DNA of 21,142 bases from NCBI GenBank assembly GCA_035295825.1, contig DATGIG010000080.1, forward strand, positions 1 through 21,142. The letters run 5' to 3'. The position numbers and the translations under genes were made by a program. Position 1 is the stretch's first letter. Each line of letters starts with the position of its first letter. This document shows, one piece after another, positions 1,392-20,926 of this stretch. Below the pieces are notes generated by a model. The model had not been told where the DNA came from, ran no database searches, and saw only the letters and a list, made by a program, of their open reading frames with translations. This DNA is from Chthonomonadaceae bacterium (lineage in GTDB: Bacteria; Armatimonadota; Chthonomonadetes; Chthonomonadales; Chthonomonadaceae).

Positions 1392-1564
1392 TCAGAAATA
1401 CTTAGAGTTGCCTTAGAATTCCTGGCATGAGAACCCTTTAGCAGGCCAAACTCCTGAGGCAAGCTGTAGAGCGGGAGGGGGTCACCCAAAACCGTGCAAC
1501 AAAGGGAGAATCGTGCTATCATACTTAGAAGAGGCAAGACGGTAGGGTGAGGAGTGAGGGACGG

Positions 1565-4024
1565 ATGCAAAAGGTGCGACGAGAGAGCGTGGGGATCGTG
1601 CTGGGCGGCGCGCTGCTATGTGCGCTGGCCGGGTTTGCCGGAGGGCAGAACAAGCCCGCGCAACCGGAGACGGTGAGCTCGCAGGCTGCGGAGTTTTTTG
1701 AGAGCAAGGTGCGCCCGCTGCTGTTCGACAAGTGTTTTAGCTGTCATGGCGAAAAGATCCAGCAGGGCGGACTACGGTTGGATTCGCGGGATGCCATGCT
1801 CAAGGGCGGCGGGAGCGGCCCGGCGATGGTCGCCGGGGAGCCGGAGAAGAGCCGCCTGATTACCGCAGTACACTACGATACGGCCCTGAAGATGCCTCCG
1901 GGCGGGAAGCTGAAGGCGGACGAGATCGCCACGCTGACTGGTTGGGTCAAGATGGGCGCGCCCTGGCCCGGCGCCAAGCCGGCGGCGAAGGCCCCCACGG
2001 AGGAGAGCGCCATCGCTGAGGCGCAGCGCACGTTCTGGTCGTTCAAGCCGGTGAAGAAGGCCGCGCCGCCCACCGTCAAGAATAAGGCGTGGGGGAAGTC
2101 CCCCATCGATGCGTTCATTCTGGCGAAGCTGGAGGCGAAGGGCCTGCAGCCCGCACCCCCCGCCGACCGGCGCACCCTCATTCGCCGCGCCTACTTCGAC
2201 CTCATAGGCATGCCGCCGACGCCGGAAGAGGTGGACGCCTTTATCGCCGACAAGTCGCCGATCGCCTTCGCGACCGTGGTGGACAAACTGCTGGCGGACC
2301 CGCGCTACGGGGAGCGGTGGGGCCGGCACTGGCTCGACGTGGCCCGCTATGCAGACACCAAGGGCTATGTGTTCACCGAGGACGCGGTCTATCACAACGG
2401 CTATACCTATCGGGATTATGTTATCCGCGCCTTCAATGAGGACCTGCCCTACGATCAGTTTATCATCCAGCAGCTCGCCGCCGACCGCCTGTCGCTGGGC
2501 GACGACAAGCGCCCCCTGGCCGCACTGGGCTTCCTGAACATCGGGCGCCGCTTCCTCAACGATCCCGTTCTGATCAACGATGACCGCATCGACGTGACCA
2601 TGCGCGGAATGCAGGGCCTGACGGTTGCCTGCGCCCGCTGCCATAACCATAAGTTCGATCCGATCCCTTCGAAAGATTACTACTCGCTCTACGGTGTCTT
2701 CGCCAGCGCGGTCGAATCGAACCCGCCCGTGCCCATCTCGGCCAAGAATATCTCCGAGCCCTACGAGGCGCACAATTCCAAGGTGCTGGCGTTGGAAAAA
2801 GAGGGTACGGAACTCATCCAGGGGCAGATCACCCATATGCGCGGCATGGTCGAGAAAGACCCGAACGTGCTCTCCACGGAGGTGCGCGCGGTCCTGCAGA
2901 GCCTCCGCATCGGCCAGCAGCCCGACGAAGGGCAAATGAAGAAGTTGATGCCCGCCTTTGAGCCGGCGGCGCAGACCAGGCTCAAAGCGCTGCAGGGGAA
3001 CCTGACCGAACTAAAGCAGCATGTGCCGCCGACGCCGGAGTTCGCGCTGGCCTCCCAGGACACGCCCACGCCCTTCGATCCCTATGTCTTTCTGCGGGGC
3101 AACCCCGGCAACCATGGCGAGAGTGTGCCGCGCCGCTTCCTGGCCGTGCTGACCACCGGGGAGCGGAAACCCTTTCCCAATGGCGGCGGACGGCTGGACC
3201 TGGCGCAGGCCATCGCCAACAAGGACAACCCGCTCACAGCGCGGGTCTTCGTCAACCGGGTCTGGCTCTACCACTTCGGCAACGGTATCGTGCGCACTCC
3301 CTCCGACTTCGGCTTTCGGGGCGAACCGCCCACCCATCCCGAATTGCTGGACTGGCTGGCCGCGACGTTTATGGAGGAGAACTGGTCCATCAAGAAGCTG
3401 CAGAGGACTATCCTGCTATCCAGCACCTACCAGATGAGCAGCGACGTCAACCCCCACGCCTTCGCGCTCGATCCGGAGAACCGGCTGCTGGCGCACCAGA
3501 ACCGGCAGCGCCTGGATCTGGAGTCCCTGCGCGACTCCGTGCTCTATGTCGCCGGGCGGCTGGATACGAAGCTCGGCGGCCCCTCGGTCGAGTTGACCAC
3601 CGCGCCCTTCTCCACCCGCCGCACCGTCTACGGCTTTATCGATCGCCAGAACCTGCAGGGCATGTACCGCACCTTCGACCTCGCCAGCCCGGACACCAGC
3701 AGCGCCCAGCGCTTCCGCACCACCGTGCCGCAGCAGAGCCTCTTTATGATGAACAGCCCGTTTGTCGTGGAGCAGGCCCGTGCGCTGGCGAAACGCCCTG
3801 AGATCGCCTCGCAGACGGACGAAACGGCCCGGATACGAGCGCTCTACCGCCTGCTGTTCGACCGCACGCCCGAACCGGATGAGATCACCTTCGCCCGCCA
3901 TTTCCTGCGCGGCGTCGAAGAGGTGCACCCGGCCAACGCCCAGGCGACGTCCAAACTGCTCACCCCCTGGGAGGAGTACGTGCAGACGCTGCTGATGACC
4001 AACGAATTCGCCTTTGCGGATTAA
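1565..4024 (+). CDS. Secreted cytochrome-c domain protein with PSCyt1 (Planctomycete cytochrome C), PSCyt2 (DUF1549) and PSD1 (DUF1553) domains
   Basis: CFSCHG heme-binding CxxCH motif in the EFFESKVRPLLFDKCFSCHG...GGLRLDS...MPPGGKL region. DUF1549-like WGKSPIDAFILAKLEAKGLQPAPPADRRTLIRRAYFDLIGMPPTPEEVDAFIAD...YGERWGRHWLDVARYADTKGY. DUF1553-like C-terminus TRRTVYGFIDRQNL...FD..SPD....R..TTVPQQSLFMMNS. N-terminal signal peptide. The ATG at 1565 is preceded by GGAGTGAGGG; an in-frame GTG at 1547 is an alternative start. Confidence 0.85.
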   Translation: MQKVRRESVGIVLGGALLCALAGFAGGQNKPAQPETVSSQAAEFFESKVRPLLFDKCFSCHGEKIQQGGLRLDSRDAMLKGGGSGPAMVAGEPEKSRLITAVHYDTALKMPPGGKLKADEIATLTGWVKMGAPWPGAKPAAKAPTEESAIAEAQRTFWSFKPVKKAAPPTVKNKAWGKSPIDAFILAKLEAKGLQPAPPADRRTLIRRAYFDLIGMPPTPEEVDAFIADKSPIAFATVVDKLLADPRYGERWGRHWLDVARYADTKGYVFTEDAVYHNGYTYRDYVIRAFNEDLPYDQFIIQQLAADRLSLGDDKRPLAALGFLNIGRRFLNDPVLINDDRIDVTMRGMQGLTVACARCHNHKFDPIPSKDYYSLYGVFASAVESNPPVPISAKNISEPYEAHNSKVLALEKEGTELIQGQITHMRGMVEKDPNVLSTEVRAVLQSLRIGQQPDEGQMKKLMPAFEPAAQTRLKALQGNLTELKQHVPPTPEFALASQDTPTPFDPYVFLRGNPGNHGESVPRRFLAVLTTGERKPFPNGGGRLDLAQAIANKDNPLTARVFVNRVWLYHFGNGIVRTPSDFGFRGEPPTHPELLDWLAATFMEENWSIKKLQRTILLSSTYQMSSDVNPHAFALDPENRLLAHQNRQRLDLESLRDSVLYVAGRLDTKLGGPSVELTTAPFSTRRTVYGFIDRQNLQGMYRTFDLASPDTSSAQRFRTTVPQQSLFMMNSPFVVEQARALAKRPEIASQTDETARIRALYRLLFDRTPEPDEITFARHFLRGVEEVHPANAQATSKLLTPWEEYVQTLLMTNEFAFAD

Positions 4025-8822: not shown

Positions 8823-10075
8823 CACAGATGACGGCGCGGCCGGGCGCATTCCGGTTGATTATCCGTGAGGGGGGACAAATTCGTGAGATGGGCGGCGACC
8901 TGACCGAAGCCGTCACCGCTGTAGACTTTATTATGCGCCAGGCGCTGGATCTGGGCGCTTCCGACATCCACCTGCAGCCGGAGCGCAACCGCCTGCTGGT
9001 GCGCTATCGCATCGATGGCGTGCTCCACGATGTGGGCCAGTATAGTCTGGAGATCGTTCCCAACATCACAGCCCGTTTGAAGCTGGCCGCTACGATGCAT
9101 ATCGACGAACGCCGCGAACCGCAGGACGGACGCCTGGATATGGAGTATGGCCCCCGCAAACTCAGCGCGCGTATGTCCTGCCTACCGATGCTGAACGGCG
9201 AGAAGATCGTTATGCGTCTGCTGGACCCGATGGGCGCCAAGGTGGAACTGGACAAGCTGGGGATGCCTAAAGACGTGCTGGATAAATGGCATAATGCCGT
9301 GCAGTCCTCCTACGGCATGGCGCTGGTCACCGGCCCGACCGGAAGCGGCAAGACCTCCACGCTCTACGCCTCCATCAATAAGCTGGATCGCACCAAGCGC
9401 AACATCGTGACGGTCGAGGACCCGGTCGAATACGAGTTCTCCGACCACATCACCCAGGTGCAGGTCACAGAGCGTCTCACCTTCGCCCGTACCATGCGCG
9501 CGTTCCTCCGCCAGGACCCGGACGTGATGCTCGTGGGAGAGATGCGCGACCCGGAGACGCTGGGCATCGGTATTCAGGCCAGCCTGACGGGTCACCTTGT
9601 CCTCAGCACCCTCCACACCAACAACGCCATCGAGACCCTGGGGCGTATGATCGACATGGGCGGCGAACCCTACCTGATCGCCTCCACCATACAGGCGATC
9701 ATGGCGCAGCGCCTGGTCCGCACCATCTGCAGCAAGTGCAAGACGCCCTACAAGCCCAATCCCGACGAACTGCTGGAGGTCGGCCTGCCGGTGGACCTGA
9801 TCGAAAAGCACACCTTCTACAAGGGCGCAGGCTGTACCGAATGCCGCAACACCGGCTACAAGGGACGCCTGGGCCTGTTCGAATGCCTCATCAGCACGCC
9901 GGAACTGCGCGAACTCATTGCACGCCGCGCGCCGATCTCCGACATCACCAACTACGTGCGCAACAAGCAGGGCATGCGGACCATGCTCGAAGACGGCTAT
10001 ACCAAGATCGCCGAGGGGCGCACGACCTGCCACGAGGTCTTTACCGCTGTCTACTCCACCATGTCCGTCGGCTAG
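8819..10075 (+). CDS. GspE/PilB-family secretion ATPase (type II secretion / type IV pilus assembly ATPase), minimal N2+CTD form
   Basis: Walker A GPTGSGKTST, Walker B/Asp box DPDVMLVGEMRD, His box LTGHLVLSTLHTNNA, tetracysteine Zn motif CSKCK...CTECRNTGYKGR, and N2-domain start ASDIHLQPE. The ATG overlaps the SBP stop (ATGA). Confidence 0.85.
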   Translation: MTQMTARPGAFRLIIREGGQIREMGGDLTEAVTAVDFIMRQALDLGASDIHLQPERNRLLVRYRIDGVLHDVGQYSLEIVPNITARLKLAATMHIDERREPQDGRLDMEYGPRKLSARMSCLPMLNGEKIVMRLLDPMGAKVELDKLGMPKDVLDKWHNAVQSSYGMALVTGPTGSGKTSTLYASINKLDRTKRNIVTVEDPVEYEFSDHITQVQVTERLTFARTMRAFLRQDPDVMLVGEMRDPETLGIGIQASLTGHLVLSTLHTNNAIETLGRMIDMGGEPYLIASTIQAIMAQRLVRTICSKCKTPYKPNPDELLEVGLPVDLIEKHTFYKGAGCTECRNTGYKGRLGLFECLISTPELRELIARRAPISDITNYVRNKQGMRTMLEDGYTKIAEGRTTCHEVFTAVYSTMSVG

Positions 10076-10087
10076 CTTTCCTCCTCT

Positions 10088-10122
10088 ATGTCTCCGCTCC
10101 CGGATGCTGGGAGCGGAGACAT
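10088..10122. terminator. 14-bp perfect hairpin (ATGTCTCCGCTCCC-ggatgct-GGGAGCGGAGACAT) between convergent genes; probable bidirectional intrinsic terminator
   Basis: Read from the sequence. Lies 12 nt after the gspE-like stop and about 100 nt after the stop of the minus-strand 1305-aa gene; followed by a T-rich stretch (ctattctaagtt). Confidence 0.5.
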
Positions 10123-10219
10123 CTATTCTAAGTTGTCTAAGGCGCTATAGTCAGGTTCAGAATGCTGTCCCTTCTCCAACCTCTCTTCAAGTCGCTTTTC
10201 ATTAAGTCTCTTCGTTTCT

Positions 10220-13200
10220 TCAAATCTCGTTTAAGTCTTCTGTTGGTTGTATCTCTACTATCGCTAGAGGTTGGTAAGCGGCCACGTTTGGAGATGCTGA
10301 TTCCTCAGAATCACTATCGAAGCGAAAGATTTTTTTTGCATCTCGCCCGGTAGCTTTGTCTCTAATAGATACCATAAGTAGATTGTTGGCATCTATATCG
10401 AATATCACTTCAAGCTGTGGGATACCACGAGGTGCAGGAGGGATTCCTTCCAAATACACTTCACCCAGGAACTTATTTGCTATGGCAATTTCCCGCTCGC
10501 CTTCGTAAATATTTACTGTAACAGAGATTTGGTTGTCTTCGGCAGTTGAGAAGACATCGCTCTTTCTAGTGGGAATACTTGTGTTACGCTCAATGAGCCT
10601 GGTGAATACGCCTCCCTGAGTTTCTATACCGAGGGAGAGAGAAGTTGCATCCAATAACAGATTCTTGAACTCCCCGCTGCCTGTACCTGTCAGAATGCCG
10701 GCCTCAAGGGCTGCACCCAGAGCAACGGCTTCATCGGGGTCAATTCCTCGTTTCGGTTCTTTCCCAAAAAAACGCCCTGCTGCTTCACGTACTAGCGGAA
10801 TCTTTGTGGATAGTCCAACCAGTACCAATTCATCTATATTTTGTATCTTTATTTTGGCATCCTCTATAGCGCGTTGGCAGCACTCCATAGTACGTTCGAC
10901 AAGGTCAGCGGTTAACTGCTCGAAGGTTGCACGGCTTAGGTCTACGTTCAGATGCTTGGCACCTTCTGCGTCTGCGGTGATATAGGGAACAGATATGGTG
11001 ACGATTTCCTGTCCGGAAAGCGCAATCTTGGCCCGTTCTGCGGCTTCCATCAAGCGGACCCGAGCCTCCTTGTCTTGAGATAGGTCAATGCCATTCTGTC
11101 GTTTGAATATTTCAATTATGTGATGCATAATTCGTGTATCGAAGTCCATTCCACCTAATCTGGTATCGCCATTGACTGACAGTATCTCACCGACAAAACC
11201 GCCATCTTCGGTATTCCCGGTATCTAACAACGAAATATCAAATGTACCGCCGCCCAGATCGTATACAGCTACCGTCCGGTCATACATATATCCTGCACTA
11301 TAGGCGAAGGATGCTGCCGTAGGTTCTGCGATTATTCGCAACACCTTCCAACCTGCCTGCTCGGCGGCGCGTTTTGTAGTTGCACTCTGAACACGATTAA
11401 AATAAGCTGGGACAGTGACAACAGCTTCGGAGATGGGACGCTCCAAATAACTTTCCGCATCCTGCTTCAAAAATGCGAAAATGTGAGCGGCTATTTCTTC
11501 GGGAGTGTATAGCCTGTCATAAATTTTGATTTTATCCGAACTCCCTAATAGTCTCTTGATGGCAAATACGGTTCCCTCAGCATTGATCTGGGCTTGCAGC
11601 AAAGCGGAAGCACCTACCGTCACTTCGCCGTCCCTGGTAAAGGCCACAACGGAAGGCGTTAGTTTGATTCCTTCCCGGTTAGGAATGATGATCGGCTTAC
11701 CGTTCCGCACCACGGCAATCAGAGACGACGTTGTGCCGAAGTCGATGCCTACTGCGGAACTGGTATTCCACAGCGAGCGTTCCTCCCAATCAGGATCGGT
11801 GATCTGTTCGACAATGTCTTGGTCAGGTCTTCCTTCTTCCTTTTGGCTTAACATCTTTCGGATTATTTGCTGATGATAGGCAGGAAGGCGTTTCAGAGCG
11901 CGGTCTAATTCTGCGATTGCTCCTAGTTTGTGCAGTGCAATTGCAGCATATCTGGAAATCTTCGTACGGTCGTCTGCAACATAATCTGCATATGATGGAA
12001 TAAGCTGATCGCCTAGACTGCTCGCTATTGCCTCCCATTCGGATAAGAAATCCACAAAAACGAGACTGCGGAAGAGCAGTTTCCGAGCAGAGTTCGAGAT
12101 AGTCAAGTCTCTCCAATAAGAACAGATATCCTTTAACTTCTCCTTTGTAATCAACTGTTGGTAGCGAGGCCAGTATTGAACCTCCATATCCAGCAGGTCC
12201 TGTGCTTCTTTTATTTTAATCTCACGCTCGGAGAGCCATTTCCATATTTCAGTGACGATATACTCATGCACGACCTCATAACGGTAGCCAGCCTCTGTCT
12301 CGATACGCCGTAATAGGTGATGATCTATCAGTTCCGTGAGGATATTTTCGATATATGGTAAACCTTGCCTCAGTGCCGTGGCAATCTCCACCTTGGATAA
12401 CAGGTTCTTTGTTTGACGAATGGTTACCAGAGATTGCAGGATTCTCTTTGCTGTTGCCCGTCGTGTATGGCTGAACTTCTCCAGTACCTGCATCAGATAG
12501 TTGCCAAGGATTTCTCTGGCTCCGCCCATGGCGCGGTAGTGGTCTATAGTGATGATGGTATCCTTCGCATGTTCCTGGTACAACCTGTAACAGACAATCT
12601 GAAGCTGTGCGGGCGCGATGCTTCCGGCGTAGCGTAGCTCTTCCAAGATTTGATCCACCAACCCCTCTTGATATTGGATGCCGAAGGGTTCCAATGGACG
12701 CGTAATTGCCTCTCTTGCTCCCTCCTTCGATAGATTATTTAAACGCTCGACATAGAAATAGGGCTGCCGAAAATGCTTTTTCATGCCTTCCAGTTCAACC
12801 AAAAAATCGTCCCGAAGAGACAAAACGAGATGTAGGTCAATACGTTGTGATTGTAAACACTGTACCAACGCTCTGGTTAGTTCTTGTTGTAGGTTCTCTT
12901 CTAATCGAAATACTTCTTCGAACTGGTCTATGAAGAGAATGACGGTCTTCCCCGTCCGCTGCTGTACACGCAGAAGCAACTTCAGCAGTCGCTCGTCTCC
13001 TCTTTCCTCCACATCGAGCGCACCGCTATATTCCGCTTCCACCGCATCGGCAATATCTTTTTCAATCGCGTTGAGCGGAGCATCCAGGCAACGACTATAG
13101 ATAGGAAAACAGTTCAATTTTGTCAGTGCAGGAATCAAGCCGGCCTTAATGCAGGACGTTTTACCCACTCCGGAACTGCCGACCAGTATCTGCAGGCGAC

Positions 13201-14137
13201 GTGTCAGAATCACCTTGCTCAAGACACTGATTTCCTGTTGCCGACCGAAGAACTGATCGCTCTGATTCGTTTCAAAATAGTCCAGAAAACGATAAGGAGA
13301 ATGGGGACGGTTGGCTATCCTATTTGTACTGATCTTCGGGGTAGTAGCCTCATAGCGTGCGAGTTGTTGCTCCAGAATCTGGAAAAATCGGAAAGGATCT
13401 TCGGAGTGAATTTTGATGTTTTCCAGCTTCCAATCATCCTTATCTTCCGGACGAGCATGAGGCTGCACAGCATATACCCTACGAGGAAACCGAGTTGTTC
13501 CCGATCCGATTTGGCGATAAAGGAATTTCCAATACACATCGTTCAGATCGTAGCCGCAAAAAAGAAGCGTTCGTGTTGCACATAAGTAGCGAATCCATTC
13601 GCACAGATAAGAGCGCTTCTGTGGGAAATCCAGGCAGTCATTCTCTGTCAGAACCAGAGAATCCCGTTGATCCGTGCTACCATACGCCTGGATGAGCGTT
13701 GTTCGCTGGCTATCGACAAAGGTAACCATGTCATCGCGAACCACATAAATCAGCGGTTTCTGTGCGCGGTCATAGGCTTCTTTTAGCCGCATATCAATAC
13801 GCGTGGTGATGATAACTGGAAAGGGAAGACGGGGAATGATAAGATCAAGAGGGTTAGGAACCTTGCTTTGAGCTTCTGTCCAACTGCAGACACGCTCAAT
13901 CAGGCGATGCGTCCCCATTTTTTGCTCATAACGCTTTGCTACAAGGGGAAATTTGCGCTCGATCTCCACTCCCGACATTTCCGAGAGCAGTTCAGCCATC
14001 AATTGCTCTTCAAATGCTCCTTCTCCTGATGGTGCGACACCTGCCCCAACAAAAAGAATACAGTTTCCGCGCGCAAGCTGCTCGATCAGTTCGTGAAGGT
14101 CGAAATCGGAAGATAAGTCATTCGTTTGGCGATTCAT
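10220..14137 (-). CDS. Large tripartite fusion protein (1305 aa): N-terminal SIR2-like domain (SIR2_2 family, catalytic Asn/His replaced), central nSTAND-type P-loop NTPase with winged-helix/helical region, C-terminal Hsp70 (DnaK-like NBD + SBD-beta, no alpha-helical lid)
   Basis: aa 15-260: [14 protein letters not shown]...[13 protein letters not shown]...LIQAYGS, paralogous to the upstream SIR2 gene. aa 275-640: [27 protein letters not shown]...[22 protein letters not shown] (Walker A), [13 protein letters not shown] (Walker B), [30 protein letters not shown] (conserved post-WH motif of nSTAND NTPases). aa 794-1270: [120 protein letters not shown]...[34 protein letters not shown], i.e. a canonical Hsp70 NBD and beta-sandwich. 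The gene ends about 35 aa after the SBD-beta. AT-rich codon usage differs from the flanks. Confidence 0.85.
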
Positions 14138-14275
14138 CGTTGTATTTTCCTGAAGATGCAGAATTTGAAATCCATTCTCCCTGTTCGCTTTCGAATGTAA
14201 TCTCTTGTCTGCAACAGTGTATGATTAACCAGGGAGCTATAATGGAACTATAGCATCCGACGCCTATCCTCTAGC

Positions 14276-15031
14276 TTATAACTGGACTTTTATCGCTTCC
14301 AGAAATGTGTAAGCGTCGGCGTCAAGAACCTGCACGTTCTTCTGTTGCCAGTACTTGATGGCGAAGCGAGAGGGGTTAAGTTGCACCGCATAGGCGCGTC
14401 GGATATGACGTCCAAGATGACGCACAACTTCATGATAAAGGCGTCGAAAATCTTCATCCATTAGCCCGAAGCCAAGAAACAGAACCGTTTGTGTGGCAAA
14501 GTAAGCGCGCACCAAATTGGTTGTTTCAGGCAAGCGGGCAAAAACATCATAATAGTCATCACCCAGGACGACAATTGTATCTTGCTGCTCAATGGAACCA
14601 TGCAATTTGATGAGTAGCCTCTTATTTTGATTGATAAAAGCGACTTCGGTATCACGCACAACGCGGTCGACGGGAATCTGGGCTTGGCGCAAAGCTTCTT
14701 CCAATAGGTTGTCCCAGTTCGTTGTAATGATGCGCTGAAAAGGTAGCTCCGCAATCATGTGATGTGCCGGCAGAGGCTGGATTTGTGGTGTGTTGATCCG
14801 GCTGGTGATGTATTGAAGGAGACTGTGAAGTCCCATTTCGAGGACATAGCCTTGGGCAACCTCTGGCAGAGGCATACAAGTAATATTTCCTAATTGTGCA
14901 CGCTGGGCGAGTTCTGAGGCTAATTGTCCTCCGCTCGGCAATCCTCCTGGTGACAAAGAGATACCTGCTCCGCAAAACAGGACACTATTGTTATTGCGGA
15001 TCTGTTCCAGTAACTCACTCGGTATATTCAT
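14276..15031 (-). CDS. Standalone SIR2-like protein (SIR2_2 / DHS-like NAD-binding family, catalytic Asn and His present); first gene of the SIR2 / SIR2-STAND-Hsp70 operon
   Basis: VLFCGAGISLSPGGLPSGGQLASELA (Rossmann GAG loop), RIITTNWDNLLEEA (conserved TTNxD with catalytic Asn), LIKLHGS (catalytic His), VLFLGFGLMDEDF. Aligns residue-for-residue with aa 15-260 of the downstream fusion protein. A 138-bp gap separates it from the next gene on the same strand. Confidence 0.8.
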   Translation of the reverse strand: MNIPSELLEQIRNNNSVLFCGAGISLSPGGLPSGGQLASELAQRAQLGNITCMPLPEVAQGYVLEMGLHSLLQYITSRINTPQIQPLPAHHMIAELPFQRIITTNWDNLLEEALRQAQIPVDRVVRDTEVAFINQNKRLLIKLHGSIEQQDTIVVLGDDYYDVFARLPETTNLVRAYFATQTVLFLGFGLMDEDFRRLYHEVVRHLGRHIRRAYAVQLNPSRFAIKYWQQKNVQVLDADAYTFLEAIKVQL

Positions 15032-15352
15032 ACGCGATGGTTCATCCTCTATCCATTTGTTATTGCTTTATCATCGAGGTTGGGTTATCCTACTTCAAAC
15101 CGATAGGATTTTGTGCCTCTCTTCAAATTGGACGTGACTATTTCCAGGTCATGTAGCTCCTCGAATACAAGTTCCAACAAGTAATTAGCGATTGTTCGCT
15201 TGTGTTCCTCCTAAAATTGGTAAATTCTCTGTGCCATTTGGTTTTCCGTGAAAGATGCCACTTTGGCATTCTGGTCGCAGTCCGATTGGCCGAAGATCTA
15301 AAAGACGGGGCGTTCACTGCAGGGCTAATTTTGCTCATAGAGCACTAGATTG

Positions 15353-15412
15353 TAATCGTTTTGGAATGAGGTACTATAAAAATAATCGTTTTGGAATAGG
15401 AGTAATCGTTTT
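15353..15412. repeat. Three direct repeats of TAATCGTTTTGGAAT (15353-15367, 15383-15397; third partial copy TAATCGTTTT 15403-15412) immediately upstream of, and abutting, the fic start codon, within the divergent SIR2-operon/fic promoter region
   Basis: Read from the sequence, with 30-bp and 20-bp spacing. TACTATAAAAAT (-10-like) lies between copies 1 and 2. Confidence 0.45.
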
Positions 15413-15415
15413 AGC

Positions 15416-16924
15416 ATGGCTTCCGTCTTTCTTAATGAAGCACGCACTCCGGTCGGGCAAATCGCACTCCACGGGACACTCAATCTCATGATACCGTCCC
15501 CAGTCGTGCAGAGTTTTGTTGTTGCCGGCGCTAGACGCACACGGGAGACGGAGACATACATTGAGGAGTATTATCCCTCGCACTACAATACCGATGGGAC
15601 CTTGATTGAAAATCTCCGGTTCGCTCTGAAACACGAGCCGCTTGACCTACGTGTGGTCTCCGCAGCATTGGAAGCGATAGGGGAGGATGCTCTCACTGCC
15701 TGGGTTCGCACGGAACCTACAGGCGCTTTCAGCCGTCGCGCCTGGTTCTTCTATGAAACCCTGATCGGGCGAACCCTCGATCTCGAAGCCGTAAAAGCGG
15801 GCAACTATGTGGATGCACTGGACGAACGACGTCACTTTGTCGCCGCTCCGATCAATTCCAGCCGGCATCGGGTCCGCGATAATCTGCTTGGCACACGTGA
15901 TCTGTGTCCTGTCGTGCGACGCACTCCAAAGTTGGAGGCAATGATCGCTGCGCACCTGGATGCGGAAGCACGGGCAATGGCAGCGCACTACTCCCCGGAG
16001 ACCCTGGCTCGCGCGGTGAACTTTCTCTACACTAAGGAGACGCGCTCCTCTTTTGCCATAGAAGGGGAAGCGCCCAGTCGGAATAGGGAGGAAAGGTTTC
16101 TTCAGGCGCTACAAGCTGTATCCACTTTCGATCCTGCCGACAAAAACGCCCTGATTCGTTTGCAGGGTAGTATTGTAGACCCTCGCTATGCAGCTCACGG
16201 TTGGCGCGACTTTCAGAACTTCGTCGGTGAGACCACACGGCGCTTTGGAGAGTATGTGCATTTTATCTGCCCGCGCCCGGAAGATATATCGTCTCTGATG
16301 GAGGGTTGGATGGCACTAACGGAACGCCTCCTGATAAGCCCCCTCGATCCGGTAATCGCGGCAGCGGTCAGCGCCTTTGCATTCGTCTTCCTACATCCGT
16401 TCGAGGATGGCAATGGGCGCATTCATCGCTTCCTGATCCACTATATACTCTCCAAACGAGGCTTTAGTCCGCCCGGAGTGATCTTTCCTGTGAGTGCGGC
16501 CATCCTGCGTCAACGCCATCTGTACGATAAGACCCTGGAAGCGTTCTCAAAGCCTATTATGGCCGCTATCGAATGGGACTTCGTGGAAGAGAATGCCCTT
16601 CAAGTACAGAACGACACATGTAACCTTTATCGCTTCTTCGATGCCACCCCGCAGGCGGAATATCTTTATGAGAGGGTTGCAGAGACCATTCGCGTGGATT
16701 TCAAAGAGGAGTTGGACTTCCTGGAAGTCTACGATGCGGCGTTTACAGCGGTGCGTGAGATCGTAGATATGCCGGACCGGCGTGCTTCGCTTCTCGTGCG
16801 CCTCTGCCTGCAAAATGGCGGGCGGCTTTCGCAAAACAAACGTAAGCAATTTGTAGAACTGACGGACGAAGAGATAAACCAGATAGAGGCAGCGATCCTA
16901 CGGGTACTGCGACAAGAGTTGTAA
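15416..16924 (+). CDS. Fic-family protein (AMPylase-type, Fic motif HPFEDGNGRIHR) with an N-terminal auto-inhibitory helix motif SFAIEG
   Basis: FVFLHPFEDGNGRIHRFLIHYIL matches HPFx(D/E)GNGR. TRSSFAIEGEAPS upstream matches the (S/T)xxxE(G/N) inhibitory motif of class II Fic proteins. ATG 15416 with AGGAG 13 nt upstream. Confidence 0.85.
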   Translation: MASVFLNEARTPVGQIALHGTLNLMIPSPVVQSFVVAGARRTRETETYIEEYYPSHYNTDGTLIENLRFALKHEPLDLRVVSAALEAIGEDALTAWVRTEPTGAFSRRAWFFYETLIGRTLDLEAVKAGNYVDALDERRHFVAAPINSSRHRVRDNLLGTRDLCPVVRRTPKLEAMIAAHLDAEARAMAAHYSPETLARAVNFLYTKETRSSFAIEGEAPSRNREERFLQALQAVSTFDPADKNALIRLQGSIVDPRYAAHGWRDFQNFVGETTRRFGEYVHFICPRPEDISSLMEGWMALTERLLISPLDPVIAAAVSAFAFVFLHPFEDGNGRIHRFLIHYILSKRGFSPPGVIFPVSAAILRQRHLYDKTLEAFSKPIMAAIEWDFVEENALQVQNDTCNLYRFFDATPQAEYLYERVAETIRVDFKEELDFLEVYDAAFTAVREIVDMPDRRASLLVRLCLQNGGRLSQNKRKQFVELTDEEINQIEAAILRVLRQEL

Positions 16925-17023
16925 CAAGTCAACCGTTGTCCCTGCTATAGATACTTTCGCCGAGCGTGCAATGCATTCTGTTGCAAATAGCGGAATGTTT
17001 GCAAGAAATAACGTTTTTCCCCC

Positions 17024-20246: not shown

Positions 20247-20300
20247 CTGCTTAGAAGCGGATTGGTCATTTATGCAAGCGGAGCAAGATTAGGGGGATCC

Positions 20301-20543
20301 ATGACACAAGTAACGCTCGAAGAAGCGGAAGAAACACTTCCACAATTGATTCAGATCGTGCAGCAAGGGGAAGAGATTATTATCACAGCGGATAGCAAGC
20401 CTATCGCCCGATTGACTTCCATTGCCAAAATCGAGCCCAAGGAGAAACCTCGCCCCCAATTTGGAAGCGGAAAAGGGTTGCTTCTTTATATGGCTCCCGA
20501 TTTTGATGCGCCCCTCGACGACTTCAAAGAGTACATGGAATGA
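20301..20543 (+). CDS. Type II antitoxin (VapB-like partner of the downstream PIN toxin)
   Basis: 80-aa acidic protein MTQVTLEEAEETLPQLIQIVQQGEEIIITADSKPIARL... with AGGGGGA SD 6 nt upstream. Its stop overlaps the toxin start (ATGA). The upstream in-frame TTG 20262 is less likely (no RBS). Confidence 0.6.
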   Translation: MTQVTLEEAEETLPQLIQIVQQGEEIIITADSKPIARLTSIAKIEPKEKPRPQFGSGKGLLLYMAPDFDAPLDDFKEYME

Positions 20544-20926
20544 GATTGCTCATAGATACCCATACTTTCCTCTGGTTCGTCGAGGGGGACCTCCAACTGA
20601 GCCAAGAGGCCAAACGACTCCTTGAGGACGAAAATAATGAGAGATGGTTAAGCCTGGCAAGCGTCTGGGAGATGGCGATCAAAATCAGCATCGGAAAGCT
20701 ACGCCTAGGTCAACCACTTGCAGAGTATGTTCGTGAACAAACGGAGCGCAATACAATCTCTTTGCTACCCATAACTTTGCCCCATGTTCTTCCCCTGACA
20801 AATTTACCTTTACACCACCGTGATCCATTCGACCGTCTTCTTGTCATGCAAAGCGTTGTGGAAGGTATGCCGATTGTCAGTGCAGACGCAGTTCTGGACG
20901 CTTATAACCTGCATCGTCTGTGGTAA
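20540..20926 (+). CDS. vapC: PIN-domain ribonuclease toxin (VapC family)
   Basis: MRLLIDTHTFLWFVEGD (N-terminal acidic D of PIN), ...LASVWEMAIKISIGKL..., DPFDRLLVMQSVVEGMPIVSADAVLDAY, the characteristic VapC layout. 128 aa. Confidence 0.8.
   Translation: MRLLIDTHTFLWFVEGDLQLSQEAKRLLEDENNERWLSLASVWEMAIKISIGKLRLGQPLAEYVREQTERNTISLLPITLPHVLPLTNLPLHHRDPFDRLLVMQSVVEGMPIVSADAVLDAYNLHRLW

What the first reader, a model, noticed from the sequence alone, without database searches (positions are those of the whole stretch)
10220..15031. Candidate undescribed immune/conflict system: standalone SIR2 plus a SIR2(dead)-nSTAND NTPase-Hsp70 fusion in one operon
Two co-directional minus-strand genes with distinct low-GC composition encode (i) a 251-aa SIR2_2-family protein with an intact Rossmann GAG loop, TTNxD Asn and LHGS His, and (ii) a 1305-aa protein combining a paralogous SIR2 domain, a STAND-class P-loop NTPase of the nSTAND type (FFGRxxE N-terminal motif, [15 protein letters not shown] Walker [10 protein letters not shown]...W...W post-WH motif) and, where STAND proteins normally carry TPR/WD40/FGS sensor repeats, a DnaK-like Hsp70 NBD plus substrate-binding beta-sandwich. 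SIR2-STAND (Avs5-like), Thoeris ThsA, DSR and SIR2-HerA systems are NAD+-depleting abortive-infection effectors, and STAND C-terminal modules are the phage-protein sensors. An Hsp70 in the sensor position suggests recognition of an unfolded or nascent phage polypeptide by a chaperone-type peptide-binding cleft, coupled to STAND oligomerisation and SIR2 NADase activation. I do not know of a described defence system with this architecture.
Basis: partly seen in the sequence, partly recalled or inferred. Interest (0 to 1): 0.92.

Follow-up and report, generated by a model that had tools for sequence, protein, structure and literature searches.

The report
Immune switch protein with built-in chaperone
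A bacterium from the phylum Armatimonadota carries a rare two-gene module in which a large switch protein of the kind used in innate immunity ends in a lidless copy of the DnaK chaperone, begins with an inactivated NAD-cleaving (SIR2) domain, and sits next to a small intact SIR2 enzyme; it probably kills or arrests the infected cell by destroying NAD+, though nothing has been tested.

Summary
Window 10220-14137 (-) encodes a 1305-aa protein with SIR2_2 (E 1.8e-16), nSTAND1 (4.7e-53) and HSP70 (1.8e-161). Window 14276-15031 (-) encodes a 251-aa SIR2 with GAG/N105/H144. Both lie in a 47% GC island within a 60-65% GC genome, next to a Fic gene that matches defence candidate PDC-S24.

The large protein's SIR2 lacks the catalytic Asn and His (Arg, Tyr). 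The Asn-to-Arg change holds in 10 of 11 aligned homologues. The Hsp70 part is a DnaK derivative, about 50% identical to E. coli DnaK, with an intact ATPase site and peptide pocket and no lid.

The architecture is rare: about 15 proteins, two clusters among the top 150 representatives of 1.84 billion, three of 185,579 species genomes.

New here: eight of nine locus types have an adjacent SIR2-domain gene. Outside the window it usually lacks the His and is often fused to TIR, PNP, CHAT or an unidentified domain. This suggests the SIR2 fold acts as a docking tag.

Hsp70 as sensor is plausible but untested. Lidless DnaK-like fusions to defence modules and chaperone-dependent STAND sensing are already published. 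I call it a new variant of a known kind.

The parts
14276..15031 (-). Gene for the 251-aa standalone SIR2 protein, the predicted NAD+ hydrolase effector. GAG 21-23, N105 and H144 are intact.
   Evidence: ORF. Pfam SIR2_2 E 3.1e-30. Closest solved relatives are the NADases KomC, DSR2 and ThsA. It belongs to a family of 35 clusters of standalone SIR2 proteins, mostly 250-290 aa, at 57-71% identity; all 36 sequences including the window's carry GAG/N/H.
14138..14275 (-). 138-nt spacer between the two co-directional genes. No terminator-like site falls in it, so a single transcript is likely.
   Evidence: Sequence. The terminator scan lists no site between 14138 and 14275. In homologues the paired genes overlap by 4-20 nt.
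15032..15415 (.). Divergent intergenic region that should hold the promoter of the two-gene module, and that of the oppositely oriented Fic gene.
   Evidence: Sequence. The consensus scan places no promoter-like site in it. A GAGGA lies about 13 nt before the small SIR2 ATG.
10220..14137 (-). Gene for the 1305-aa protein with inactivated SIR2, nSTAND1 NTPase, HEAT-like helices and lidless Hsp70.
   Evidence: It is identical to public protein P0001, 'MAG TPA: Hsp70 family protein [Chthonomonadaceae bacterium]'.
13328..14137 (-). aa 1-270: SIR2-fold domain with the catalytic Asn replaced by Arg113 and the His by Tyr152. It is the predicted docking platform for the SIR2 partner.
   Evidence: Pfam SIR2_2. 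Alignments. Asn-to-Arg in 10 of 11 aligned family members and in the two further loci L074 and L076. AF2 confidence is low around 140-159, the loop that would carry the His.
12227..13297 (-). aa 281-637: nSTAND1 STAND NTPase module, comprising the FFGR motif, P-loop domain, helical domain and winged helix.
   Evidence: Pfam PF20703 at 181.6 bits against a cut-off of 27.1. Invariant F296, G298, R299, G323, G325, K326, D404, E407 and H624 across 32 nSTAND1 proteins. The AF2 secondary structure fits a P-loop, helical and winged-helix order.
13154..13180 (-). Walker A motif, GSSGVGKTS (aa 320-328).
12914..12937 (-). Walker B region, LFIDQFEE (aa 401-408).
11768..12220 (-). aa 640-790: all-helical connector with HEAT-like repeats. 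It looks like the stub of the HEAT sensor arm that non-Hsp70 relatives carry.
   Evidence: AF2 predicts nine helices at pLDDT 85-95. A family profile hits alphaRep/HEAT designs over positions 705-783. Relatives P0012, P0114 and P0117 have HEAT_2 in this position.
10667..11761 (-). aa 793-1157: Hsp70 nucleotide-binding domain with an intact ATPase site. DnaK D8, K70, E171, D194 and T199 correspond to D799, K861, E938, D960 and T965.
   Evidence: Pfam and NCBIfam. About 50% identity to E. coli DnaK. Residue table. The AF2 model superposes on ATP-state DnaK structures at rmsd 3-4 A.
10322..10666 (-). aa 1158-1272: hydrophobic interdomain linker (NLLLD) and the beta-sandwich substrate-binding domain. 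The peptide pocket is conserved and the helical lid is absent.
   Evidence: The Pfam match stops at profile position 495 of 599. Pocket residues F426, A429, V436 and I438 of DnaK are kept. AF2 predicts beta strands only, then disorder.
10220..10321 (-). aa 1273-1305 plus the stop codon: acidic, poorly conserved and predicted disordered C-terminal tail in place of the lid.
   Evidence: pLDDT below 50 for model residues 635-666. Mean pairwise identity 16%.
10088..10122 (.). Perfect 14-bp inverted repeat with a 7-nt loop, lying between the convergent large gene and the T2SSE ATPase gene. It is a likely bidirectional terminator.
   Evidence: Inverted repeat I3, 100% complementary. Sequence. No T-run follows, so the consensus scan did not list it.
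9900..16950 (.). Low-GC island (approximate limits) holding the two-gene module and the Fic/PDC-S24 gene. It is probably horizontally acquired.
   Evidence: GC is 0.46-0.56 inside and 0.60-0.66 outside. No tRNA gene and no flanking direct repeats were found, so the borders are not defined.

Best explanation
This is a horizontally acquired two-gene STAND-type conflict module, most likely for abortive infection.

The 1305-aa protein combines input, switch and scaffold.
- Input: the C-terminal module is a DnaK derivative with a working ATPase site and a conserved peptide-binding cleft, and it has no lid. It most likely reports the binding of a client polypeptide that appears on infection. That client could be an abundant unfolded or nascent viral protein, possibly handed over by the host J-protein.
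- Switch: the resulting change in the Hsp70 module passes through the short HEAT-like connector to the nSTAND1 NTPase, which then oligomerises in an ATP-dependent way.
- Scaffold: oligomerisation clusters the N-terminal SIR2-fold domains. These cannot hydrolyse NAD+ because the Asn is Arg and the His is Tyr. They serve as a homotypic docking or nucleation surface for the separately encoded 251-aa SIR2.

The small SIR2 has the full GAG/Asn/His set. Once assembled it hydrolyses NAD+ and stops the cell.

Shown here: the domain order, the state of the catalytic residues, the rarity and single origin of the Hsp70 fusion, the conserved pairing with a SIR2-domain gene, the swapping of the partner's second domain, and the defence-island setting.

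Inferred: that Hsp70 is the sensor, what the trigger is, that the two SIR2 folds touch, that the small SIR2 is an NADase, and that the outcome is phage defence.
For: 1. Architecture and motifs. The nSTAND1 score is far above its cut-off and the NTPase motifs are invariant across 32 nSTAND1 proteins.

2. The closest solved whole-architecture analogue of residues 1-795 is EfAvs5, a SIR2-STAND protein (9jap), at Foldseek E 4e-14. In that protein, SIR2-SIR2 contacts within filaments switch on the NADase (PMC11897194).

3. The large protein's SIR2 is inactivated across the family: Asn to Arg in 10 of 11 aligned members and a degenerate GxG loop. N/H mutants of DSR2 and KomC are deposited as inactive forms.

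4. A SIR2-domain gene is adjacent in eight of nine distinct locus types.
- window: SIR2 alone
- L014 and L012: SIR2 alone
- L001 and L003: PNP_UDP-SIR2
- L008: TIR-SIR2
- L075: SIR2-TIR
- L007: SIR2-CHAT
- L074: SIR2 plus an unknown domain
Most of these overlap the large gene or lie within a few nucleotides of it. The partner SIR2 domains fall into at least three clades. The second domain can sit on either side of the SIR2. The partner's His is lost everywhere except in the window. This is the pattern expected of an adaptor tag.

5. The same logic appears outside the Hsp70 clade. In L080, a standalone SIR2 63% identical to the window's lies about 1 kb from a SIR2(inactive)-nSTAND1-HEAT gene, with a SIR2(inactive)-caspase gene a few kb beyond.

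6. The Hsp70 module occupies the position held by HEAT repeats in the nearest relatives. It is monophyletic across the family. It is the best-conserved part of the protein: about 65% for the nucleotide-binding domain against 49% for SIR2. It keeps its catalytic, linker and pocket residues.

7. Chaperone-linked STAND sensing has a precedent in bNACHT25, which needs DnaJ (PMC12169576). STAND sensing through a host factor has a precedent in Avs7 with EF-Tu (PMC13581612).

8. Defence context.
Against: - No experiment or interaction prediction supports SIR2-SIR2 docking. The tools give single-chain models only.
- The window's small SIR2 is of different origin from the other partners, so in this one locus the adjacency could be coincidental.
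- The pair is separated by 138 nt, whereas in many homologous loci the genes overlap or lie within a few nucleotides.
- The P0006/P0010 subclade works without any SIR2 partner.
- L012 and L014 have partners that are SIR2 alone with His replaced by Cys. The 'tag only' reading leaves them without an obvious effector.
- The wider SIR2-nSTAND1 family includes fusions to protein kinase, cyclase and histidine kinase domains, so not every member need be immune.
- The high conservation of the Hsp70 module is unlike typical Avs sensor arms and fits a generic chaperone cycle as well as it fits a sensor.
- Residues on the J-domain and allosteric surface differ from all 41 DnaKs compared (N170A invariant; D148 and K155 variable). 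J-protein coupling is therefore uncertain.
Confidence: 0.5

Rival explanations
1. Integrated decoy or guard. The DnaK-like module does not sense unfolded protein in general. It imitates the host's own DnaK and acts as bait for phage proteins that recruit, hijack or inhibit the DnaK/DnaJ/GrpE machine, such as phage J-domain proteins, replication loaders or DnaK inhibitors. Binding of such a protein releases the STAND switch. The effector side is the same as in the best explanation.
For: The module is a close DnaK derivative rather than a divergent Hsp70. It scores 607 bits on the DnaK equivalog model. Its nearest canonical DnaK is that of the same family, Chthonomonadaceae, at 58-59% identity, against 51-55% for that DnaK compared with the other family members' Hsp70 modules. 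R167 and the interdomain linker are kept. Host-factor-based sensing by STANDs has precedents in Avs7/EF-Tu and bNACHT25/DnaJ. Kaur et al. describe conflict systems that acquire modules from cellular subsystems (PMC7159879).
Against: All family modules form one clade regardless of host phylum (Armatimonadota, Chloroflexota, Cyanobacteriota). They therefore do not track each host's own DnaK. The J-binding and allosteric surface is the part that has changed most (N170A, D148, K155), which is odd for a mimic. The lid, which many DnaK partners contact, is missing.
Confidence: 0.2
2. Chaperone titration or thermostat model. The Hsp70 module is an internal brake rather than a receptor for foreign protein. 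At rest, its cleft holds a segment of the same protein or of the partner and keeps the STAND off. Any flood of unfolded protein, from infection, heat or other proteotoxic stress, competes for the cleft and releases the switch. This resembles the way DnaK titration controls sigma-32. The module would then be a stress-triggered suicide or dormancy device that is not specific to phage.
For: A lidless Hsp70 binds and releases clients quickly, which suits competition. The authors who noted lidless DnaK-like fusions to EACC1-protease modules suggested the same link to general stress (PMC12642450). The module is under strong purifying selection, like a working chaperone. Thresholding by NTPase chaperones is a recurring theme in prokaryotic conflict systems (PMC7159879).
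Against: No conserved hydrophobic 'pseudo-substrate' segment was seen. The C-terminal tail is acidic, disordered and only 16% conserved. AF2 did not place any segment in the cleft, as far as secondary-structure and pLDDT output can show. The defence-island context points to phage.
Confidence: 0.15
3. The two genes are independent neighbours in a defence island. The small SIR2 is a self-contained or otherwise regulated NADase. The large protein acts alone, for example as a chaperone-coupled signalling STAND or a scaffold whose output is something other than NAD+ loss.
For: The window's small SIR2 belongs to a separate, widespread family of standalone SIR2 proteins and is not orthologous to the other partners. 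The genes are 138 nt apart. Islands pack unrelated systems side by side, as with the Fic/PDC-S24 gene next door. One subclade lacks a SIR2 partner.
Against: Eight of nine locus types have a SIR2-domain neighbour, and in nearly all of them it overlaps or lies within a few nucleotides of the large gene. None of the SIR2-nSTAND1 loci without Hsp70 fetched in the genome scan has such a neighbour; the only separate SIR2 genes there, in L061 and L062, sit beside nSTAND1 proteins that lack a SIR2 domain of their own. A 251-aa SIR2 has no sensor of its own. Its one homologue examined in context also sits by a SIR2(inactive)-nSTAND1 gene. A large protein with an inactivated SIR2 and no other effector domain would have no output.
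Confidence: 0.08
4. This is not an immune system. It is a regulatory or proteostasis STAND protein in which an NTPase switch controls, or is controlled by, a dedicated Hsp70, with the SIR2 folds binding NAD-related metabolites as signals.
For: The wider SIR2-nSTAND1 family carries signalling domains such as Ser/Thr kinase, nucleotide cyclase and histidine kinase. Only 11 of 147 representatives keep the catalytic Asn/His pair. The large protein's SIR2 keeps its His in most members despite losing the Asn, which hints at ligand binding. Non-immune bacterial NLR-like regulators exist (title and abstract of 10.64898/2026.09.02.748808).
Against: The partners carry classic death or defence effector domains: TIR, PNP_UDP, CHAT and caspase, and an intact SIR2. 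The distribution is patchy across three phyla, the window copy sits in a low-GC island, and the neighbourhoods are rich in defence and toxin-antitoxin genes.
Confidence: 0.07

Closest known systems
Avs5 / AVAST type 5 (SIR2-STAND-sensor, e.g. EfAvs5, PDB 9jap)
   Same: It has the same order of parts: SIR2 fold, STAND NTPase, then a C-terminal input arm. EfAvs5 is the best structural match for residues 1-795 (Foldseek E 4e-14). In Avs5, SIR2-SIR2 contacts within an NTPase-driven assembly switch on NAD+ hydrolysis (PMC11897194). The present model extends that mechanism to a partner acting in trans.
   Different: Only 11% identity, and no sequence-level match: no Avs model in PADLOC and no STAND chain in the PDB profile search. 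The NTPase belongs to the nSTAND1 clade. The SIR2 on the STAND protein is catalytically inactive and the enzyme is a separate gene. The input arm is an Hsp70, where Avs5 has a helical repeat sensor.
EACC1-protease modules fused to lidless DnaK-like domains (PMC12642450, bioRxiv 2025)
   Same: A DnaK-like module about 50% identical to canonical DnaK and lacking the lid helices is fused to a defence effector module. Its authors likewise propose that it senses misfolded proteins or infection-linked stress.
   Different: There the partners are a cysteine protease and the pore-former EACC1. No SIR2 is mentioned, and the text read here does not say whether a STAND NTPase lies between them. It is a bioinformatic note without experiments. 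I could not test whether the two DnaK-like modules share an origin.
bNACHT25 with host DnaJ (PMC12169576), and Avs7 with EF-Tu (PMC13581612)
   Same: These are STAND immune receptors that detect phage proteins indirectly, through a host proteostasis or translation factor.
   Different: In those systems the host factor is a separate housekeeping protein. Here a chaperone module is built into the receptor polypeptide.
CoCoNuT type III CnuD and McrB-Hsp70 fusions (PMC11090510)
   Same: An Hsp70 NBD/SBD unit is embedded in a predicted defence system, next to HEAT-like repeats.
   Different: Those systems belong to the McrBC GTPase family. Their Hsp70 catalytic motifs are often degenerate and RNA binding is proposed. 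Here the ATPase site and peptide pocket are intact, and there is no McrB, McrC or HEPN.
Effector-associated domains (EADs) and Death-like adaptors of prokaryotic conflict systems (PMC7159879, PMC8195603)
   Same: The logic is the same: one small domain appears both on the NTPase sensor and on separately encoded, interchangeable effectors, and it couples them by homotypic contact.
   Different: The tag here would be a roughly 260-aa SIR2 Rossmann fold, usually a pseudo-enzyme, whereas the known tags are small helical domains. I found no paper that gives SIR2 this role.
Standalone SIR2 NADase effectors working with a separate sensor (KomC of Kongming; ThsA; DSR2)
   Same: The small SIR2's best solved relatives are KomC (264 aa, E 1.2e-15), DSR2 and ThsA, and it shares the GAG/Asn/His catalytic set.
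   Different: There are no KomA/KomB, no SLOG domain (ThsA) and no DSR2 C-terminal sensor. The matches cover the SIR2 core only, and scores are far below the NCBIfam Dsr cut-offs (40 against 1400).

Membership tests
STAND NTPase, nSTAND1 clade (Pfam PF20703) | Match to the nSTAND1 profile above the gathering score | tested here: met
   181.6 bits against a cut-off of 27.1, covering profile positions 1-349 of 379.
STAND NTPase, nSTAND1 clade (Pfam PF20703) | Intact Walker A and Walker B motifs and the conserved motifs before the P-loop and after the winged helix | tested here: met
   GSSGVGKTS 320-328, IDQFEE 403-408, FFGR 296-299 and YEVVHEYIV 620-628. They are invariant in the family and largely so across 32 nSTAND1 proteins.
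STAND NTPase, nSTAND1 clade (Pfam PF20703) | Three-part layout: N-terminal effector or adaptor, NTPase, C-terminal input region | tested here: met
   Domain order. The C-terminal region is an Hsp70, where relatives usually carry repeats.
STAND NTPase, nSTAND1 clade (Pfam PF20703) | Nucleotide-dependent oligomerisation | not testable with these tools
   This needs biochemistry or cryo-EM.
Avs5 (AVAST type 5) | Sequence match to Avs5 models or solved EfAvs5 | tested here: not met
   No Avs model hit at E<=0.1 in PADLOC. The family profile finds no STAND chain in the PDB. There is only a fold-level match, at 11% identity.
Avs5 (AVAST type 5) | Catalytically competent SIR2 on the STAND polypeptide | tested here: not met
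   Arg113 and Tyr152 occupy the Asn and His positions.
Hsp70 superfamily | HSP70 profile match, actin-like ATPase catalytic residues and a beta-sandwich substrate-binding domain | tested here: met
   PF00012 E 1.8e-161. The equivalents of DnaK D8, K70, E171, D194, T199 and D201, and of pocket residues F426, A429, V436 and I438, are kept. The AF2 model matches DnaK structures.
Canonical DnaK (NCBIfam equivalog NF001413 / TIGR02350) | Score above the equivalog cut-off, and the full length including the helical lid | tested here: not met
   607 bits against a cut-off of 648, and 593 against 822. The profile match ends at 490 of 625. No helices follow the beta domain and the tail is disordered. 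N13, D148 and N170 are invariant in 41 DnaKs and changed here.
SIR2 NADase defence effectors (SIR2_2, PF13289): small protein | SIR2_2 profile match with the Rossmann GxG loop and the catalytic Asn and His | tested here: met
   E 3.1e-30. GAG, N105 and H144 are present. The same triad is found in all 36 sequences of its family.
SIR2 NADase defence effectors (SIR2_2, PF13289): small protein | NAD+ hydrolase activity | not testable with these tools
   This needs an enzyme assay.
Thoeris (ThsA + ThsB) | ThsA with a SLOG/STALD signal-binding domain, and a TIR ThsB partner | tested here: not met
   The PADLOC ThsA hits cover only model positions 12-228 of 478, the SIR2 part. The window has no TIR gene.
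DSR1 / DSR2 | NCBIfam equivalog score and the long C-terminal sensor | tested here: not met
   40 and 26 bits against cut-offs of 1400. The protein is 251 aa.
CoCoNuT / McrBC-Hsp70 systems | McrB-type GTPase and a McrC/DUF2357 partner with CnuD Hsp70 | tested here: not met
   No such domains occur in the large protein or in its neighbours.
EACC1-protease-DnaK-like fusions | A cysteine protease and an EACC1 gene linked to the DnaK-like module | tested here: not met
   There is no protease or EACC1 in the window. A CHAT protease appears only on the partner in locus L007. Whether the DnaK-like modules share an origin was not tested.

The most novel reading that the evidence does not exclude
Two things may be new together.

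1. A full-size SIR2 Rossmann fold, stripped of catalysis, may have become a homotypic 'death-fold-like' adaptor. The inactivated SIR2 on an oligomerising STAND protein would nucleate the assembly of SIR2-tagged effectors encoded in trans: an intact SIR2 NADase here, and TIR, PNP nucleosidase, CHAT or caspase proteases elsewhere. This would resemble the way PYD and CARD domains nucleate inflammasome filaments. The at-most-one-His pattern across the pairs even leaves room for a composite or templated active site.

2. A lidless DnaK built into the receptor may give bacteria a pattern-recognition receptor for a state, namely exposed hydrophobic polypeptide or overload of the chaperone system during virion production. 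Known receptors of this class instead recognise the fold of one phage protein.
Probability: 0.3. Interest if true: 0.85.

Novelty: new variant of a known kind. Interest (0 to 1): 0.72.

Why it matters
STAND/NLR-type receptors are the shared core of innate immunity in bacteria, plants and animals, and how they sense infection is the central question about them. Nearly all characterised bacterial members bind the fold of one conserved phage protein through a repeat-rich arm.

A receptor whose arm is a working, lidless Hsp70 would be a direct test of 'danger sensing' in bacteria. It would detect a disturbed proteostasis state, or clients delivered by the chaperone network, rather than one specific phage protein. 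It would also give a biochemical handle on the still unexplained DnaJ dependence of bNACHT25.

The second point is more general. The data suggest that SIR2 folds, so far treated only as NAD+-destroying effectors, are often pseudo-enzymes in this large STAND family: only 11 of 147 representatives keep the catalytic pair. They may serve as docking tags that let one sensor drive interchangeable effectors. If so, many 'SIR2' annotations in defence islands mis-state the effector, and defence-system finders would need paired-gene rules for these loci.

Tried and rejected
1. I first took the 24-residue gap relative to E. coli DnaK (residues 76-99) for a family-specific deletion in lobe IB. It is the ordinary Gram-positive-type DnaK indel and is also absent from Armatimonadota housekeeping DnaKs. 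Dropped.

2. Fic next to an Hsp70-bearing gene recalls FICD AMPylating BiP; AMPylated BiP structures even appear among the fold hits. No other locus has a Fic neighbour, and the Fic gene is a full-length match to the stand-alone candidate PDC-S24. I treat this as coincidence.

3. I tested whether the 1800-aa helicase that follows the large gene in L002 and L004 hides a SIR2 tag. A search with all filters off found none. It is a DpdJ/DruE-like helicase with a PD-(D/E)xK end.

4. I tested whether the small SIR2 is a truncated remnant of a SIR2-nSTAND1 gene. Rejected: it belongs to a family of 35 clusters of standalone proteins, mostly 250-290 aa, that align full-length with intact catalytic residues.

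5. I looked for co-chaperone genes (J-domain, GrpE) in the neighbourhoods. The Pfam listings show none.

6. Viral contigs (IMG/VR) contain no relative of the family-specific junction.

7. The first junction alignment (A3) was too variable for a collection scan. A narrower one (A4) gave four metagenome loci.

8. There is no tRNA gene and there are no island-flanking direct repeats, so the island borders and insertion mechanism remain open.

9. The promoter and terminator consensus scans were no better than shuffled sequence and were not used as evidence.

10. A prediction of the SIR2-SIR2 complex was not attempted. The tool folds single chains only and returns no interface scores.

Full report
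**What is in the window.** The window is a 21,142-bp contig from a metagenome-assembled genome labelled Chthonomonadaceae bacterium, phylum Armatimonadota. Two co-directional minus-strand ORFs occupy 14276-15031 (251 aa) and 10220-14137 (1305 aa), 138 nt apart. They lie in a stretch of 46-49% GC, while the flanks are 60-66% GC. The low-GC stretch runs on over the divergently transcribed gene at 15416-16924. Upstream lie housekeeping-type genes: a PSCyt/PSD1 protein, VanW, ABC transporter parts and a T2SSE ATPase. Downstream lie a Fic protein, an SPFH protein and a Phd/VapB-PIN pair.

Pfam places SIR2_2 (aa 108-237, E 1.8e-16), nSTAND1 (aa 281-637, E 4.7e-53, 181.6 bits against a cut-off of 27.1) and HSP70 (aa 795-1270, E 1.8e-161) on the large protein, and SIR2_2 (E 3.1e-30) on the small one. 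The HSP70 match covers profile positions 1-495 of 599. That is the nucleotide-binding domain, the linker and the beta substrate-binding domain, without the helical lid. PADLOC returns only partial hits to the SIR2 portion of ThsA and to Dsr/LmuA models, and no system model.

**State of the catalytic residues.**
- The small SIR2 has GAG (21-23), N105 and H144.
- Its best solved relatives are the NADases KomC (264 aa), DSR2 and ThsA. Their Asn/His mutants are deposited as inactive forms.
- In the large protein the equivalent positions are Arg113 and Tyr152.

**The Hsp70 module.**
- It is about 50% identical to E. coli DnaK and 58-59% identical to the housekeeping DnaK of Chthonomonadaceae.
- It scores just under the DnaK equivalog cut-off, 607 bits against 648.
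- All ATPase residues are kept: the equivalents of DnaK D8, K70, E171, D194, T199 and D201.
- Also kept are R167, the hydrophobic interdomain linker, and the peptide-pocket residues F426, A429, V436 and I438.
- N13, D148 and N170 are invariant in 41 DnaKs compared and changed in the family; N170A is invariant within the family.

**Structure models.** An AF2 model of residues 640-1305 (pLDDT 85, pTM 0.80) has four parts. The first is nine helices (640-790). The second and third are an Hsp70 nucleotide-binding domain and a beta-sandwich that superpose on ATP-state DnaK structures at 3-4 A. The last is a disordered acidic tail (1274-1305) where the lid would be. A family profile matches HEAT-like alphaRep designs over positions 705-783. 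An AF2 model of residues 1-795 (pLDDT 83) shows a SIR2 Rossmann fold, then a P-loop domain, a helical domain and a winged helix. Its best PDB match is EfAvs5, a SIR2-STAND protein, at E 4e-14 but only 11% identity.

**How common it is.**
- A word-indexed search of 5.8 billion proteins found ten further proteins with the same three domains, at 35-46% identity over the N-terminal 790 residues. It also found relatives that carry HEAT repeats, or nothing, in place of Hsp70.
- A full HMMER search of 1.84 billion cluster representatives found a very large SIR2-nSTAND1 family, with 4468 representatives at E<1e-30. Only three of the best 150 carry Hsp70 (P0002, P0011 and the fragment P0239). Scores drop from 1227 to 620 bits after the Hsp70 clade.
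- Among 185,579 species genomes, only three carry the fusion: a Chloroflexia MAG, an Obscuribacterales MAG and Candidatus Viridilinea mediisalina.
- A metagenome scan added four loci. No viral contig carries it.
- In a neighbour-joining tree, the Hsp70 modules of the family form one clade apart from housekeeping DnaKs. The fusion therefore arose once and has since moved between phyla.
- The nucleotide-binding domain is the best-conserved part of the protein. Using approximate domain limits, mean pairwise identity is 65% for that domain, 59% for nSTAND1, 57% for the beta domain, 49% for SIR2, 49% for the helical connector and 16% for the tail.

**The neighbouring gene is the main new result.** I read the flanks of every locus with usable sequence.

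| Locus | Neighbouring gene |
|---|---|
| window | SIR2 alone, 251 aa |
| L014 | SIR2 alone, 263 aa |
| L012 | SIR2 alone, 285 aa |
| L001, L003 | PNP_UDP-SIR2, 684 and 689 aa |
| L008 | TIR-SIR2, 557 aa |
| L075 | SIR2-TIR, 437 aa |
| L007 | SIR2-CHAT, 632 aa |
| L074 | SIR2 plus an unidentified C-terminal domain, 567 aa |
| L002, L004 | no SIR2 gene; a conserved 1800-aa DpdJ/DruE-like helicase with a PD-(D/E)xK end |

- Eight of nine locus types thus have an adjacent gene with a SIR2_2 domain, usually overlapping the large gene by a few bases. L014 is convergent with a small gap, and L074 has a gap of about 640 nt.
- The L002/L004 helicase starts 10-14 nt downstream of the large gene.
- Among the non-Hsp70 loci fetched from genomes, no protein carrying both SIR2 and nSTAND1 has a separate SIR2 neighbour. 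The only separate SIR2 genes, in L061 and L062, sit next to nSTAND1 proteins that lack a SIR2 domain of their own.

**Catalytic residues across the pairs.** The large protein has Arg in place of Asn in 10 of 11 aligned members, and Ser in the eleventh. It keeps the His in 9 of those 11 but not in the window. L074 and L076 also have Arg and His. Its GxG loop is degenerate in several members. The partner keeps the Asn in most loci. It has Cys, Gly or Tyr at the His position everywhere except in the window. The partner SIR2 domains fall into at least three clades. The window's small SIR2 does not group with any of them. It groups with the SIR2 domains of other SIR2-nSTAND1 proteins and with P0015, a SIR2 protein with a membrane anchor.

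**Is the window's small SIR2 a real partner?** It is not a fragment. It belongs to a family of 35 clusters of standalone SIR2 proteins, mostly 250-290 aa, at 57-71% identity. All 36 sequences including the window's carry GAG/Asn/His. The public gene call of 199 aa for the window copy starts too late. I could examine only one family member on a long contig. That member, P0393, is 63% identical to the window's SIR2. It lies about 1 kb upstream of a SIR2(inactive, Cys/Leu)-nSTAND1-HEAT gene, which the assembly splits into three pieces. A SIR2(inactive, Ala/Tyr)-caspase gene lies a few kb further on. The same pairing logic therefore appears outside the Hsp70 clade. In the wider SIR2-nSTAND1 family, only 11 of 147 representatives keep both Asn and His. 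The core is also fused to protein kinase, nucleotide cyclase, histidine kinase and HEAT domains.

**Most likely mechanism.** The large protein is a STAND receptor. Its HEAT arm has been shortened to a connector and capped with a lidless DnaK. Binding of a client polypeptide in the cleft, coupled to the Hsp70 ATPase cycle, would release the nSTAND1 switch. Oligomerisation would then cluster the inactivated SIR2 folds. These would dock and activate the separately encoded SIR2, which destroys NAD+. Two points support the effector half of this model. First, SIR2-SIR2 contacts in NTPase-driven filaments activate Avs5 (PMC11897194). Second, the partners show the adaptor-like pattern described above. 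The input half rests on the position of the module, its conservation, and published cases of chaperone- or host-factor-mediated STAND sensing: bNACHT25 with DnaJ (PMC12169576) and Avs7 with EF-Tu (PMC13581612). None of the functional steps is shown.

**Rivals.** The rival readings are:
- the Hsp70 as a decoy for phage proteins that target the DnaK system;
- the Hsp70 as an internal brake that is titrated away by unfolded protein;
- coincidental adjacency of two independent genes;
- a non-immune regulatory role.

The evidence for and against each, and the results that would refute each, are given in the Rival explanations section.

**Comparison with what is known.** Five full-text searches found no paper describing a SIR2-nSTAND1-Hsp70 protein. 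nSTAND1 itself appears in only five papers. The nearest published ideas are:
- lidless DnaK-like modules about 50% identical to DnaK, fused to EACC1-protease modules and discussed as possible sensors of misfolded protein (PMC12642450);
- Hsp70 NBD/SBD units in CoCoNuT and McrB systems, with degenerate catalytic motifs and proposed RNA binding (PMC11090510);
- HSP70 in GTPase-centred conflict systems (PMC7159879).

By sequence the protein is a member of the nSTAND1 clade and of the Hsp70 superfamily. It is not a member of Avs5, canonical DnaK, Thoeris, DSR, CoCoNuT or the EACC1 systems; the membership table gives the tests.

**Verdict.** The feature is real, rare and well defined. I class it as a new variant of a known kind: a STAND-type conflict system with an unusual built-in chaperone input and a split effector recruited through a SIR2-fold tag. 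Interest is 0.72. The score is high because both the chaperone input and the SIR2-as-adaptor idea are directly testable and bear on how NLR-like receptors sense infection. It is not higher because the paradigm is established, the chaperone-sensor idea has been voiced for related fusions, and there are no functional data.

Noticed in passing
window 15416-16924 (+): The 502-aa Fic-domain gene transcribed divergently from the small SIR2 is a full-length match to the PADLOC defence candidate PDC-S24 (E 4e-185, positions 4-490 of 497) and a partial match to SoFic. It lies in the same low-GC island.
   Followed up: partly
window 15352-15418: Three direct copies of a 17-nt motif (GTAATCGTTTTGGAATG; spacing 30 and 20 nt; 88-100% identical) lie immediately upstream of the Fic start codon and overlap it. 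They look like an operator array for an unidentified regulator.
   Followed up: no
window 10088-10122: A perfect 14-bp inverted repeat with a 7-nt loop sits between the convergent large gene and the T2SSE ATPase gene. It is probably a bidirectional terminator without a T-run.
   Followed up: no
window 20262-20926 (+): A Phd/VapB-like antitoxin (93 aa) overlaps a PIN-domain toxin (128 aa) by 4 nt. This is a type II toxin-antitoxin pair in a second low-GC patch (GC 0.50).
   Followed up: partly
window 14276-15031 (-): The public gene call for the small SIR2 is only 199 aa (P0380; 100% identity over 79% of the ORF) and so omits the GAG NAD-binding loop. Homologues show that the 251-aa ORF is correct.
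   Followed up: yes
SIR2 pairs in the window, L001, L003, L007, L008, L012, L014, L074 and L075: Each pair has at most one catalytic His. The large protein keeps His but has Arg for Asn. The partner keeps Asn but has Cys, Gly or Tyr for His. Only in the window is this reversed: the large protein has Tyr and the partner has both residues. This is unexplained. It could reflect ligand binding, a templated or composite site, or chance.
   Followed up: partly
L002 12013-17415 and L004 3988-9375: In one subclade (P0006, P0010) the large gene is followed within 10-14 nt by a conserved (67% identical) 1800-aa DpdJ/DruE-like (YprA-family) helicase with an MZB zinc domain and a PD-(D/E)xK end, and there is no SIR2 partner. 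This may be a different effector coupling.
   Followed up: partly
L080 10001-20507: One locus holds three related genes: a standalone intact SIR2 63% identical to the window's, a SIR2(inactive)-nSTAND1-HEAT gene split into three ORFs (probably assembly frameshifts), and a SIR2(inactive)-caspase gene. This suggests SIR2-tagged effectors also serve STAND proteins that have no Hsp70.
   Followed up: partly
proteins P0113-P0260 (representatives of the SIR2-nSTAND1 family): Only 11 of 147 representatives keep both the catalytic Asn and His, so the SIR2 fold in this large STAND family is mostly a pseudo-enzyme. The core is also fused to Ser/Thr kinase, nucleotide cyclase, histidine kinase and HEAT domains.
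   Followed up: partly
L007 8001-11882: In Candidatus Viridilinea mediisalina the large gene is split into a 906-aa ORF and a 372-aa ORF within the Hsp70 nucleotide-binding domain. This is either a frameshift or pseudogene, or a genuine split.
   Followed up: no
L001 3238-4348 and 19636-19966; L075 4736-5548; L076 2066-2775: Homologous loci sit beside an IS element (HTH_Tnp_1 and rve), a BrxL gene of BREX, a DUF4058/Uma2-like nuclease and a UPF0175 antitoxin. This fits mobile defence islands.
   Followed up: no
window 1547-4024 (+): An 825-aa protein carries the Planctomycete-type PSCyt1/PSCyt2/PSD1 domains in an Armatimonadota genome. It is unrelated to the finding.
   Followed up: no
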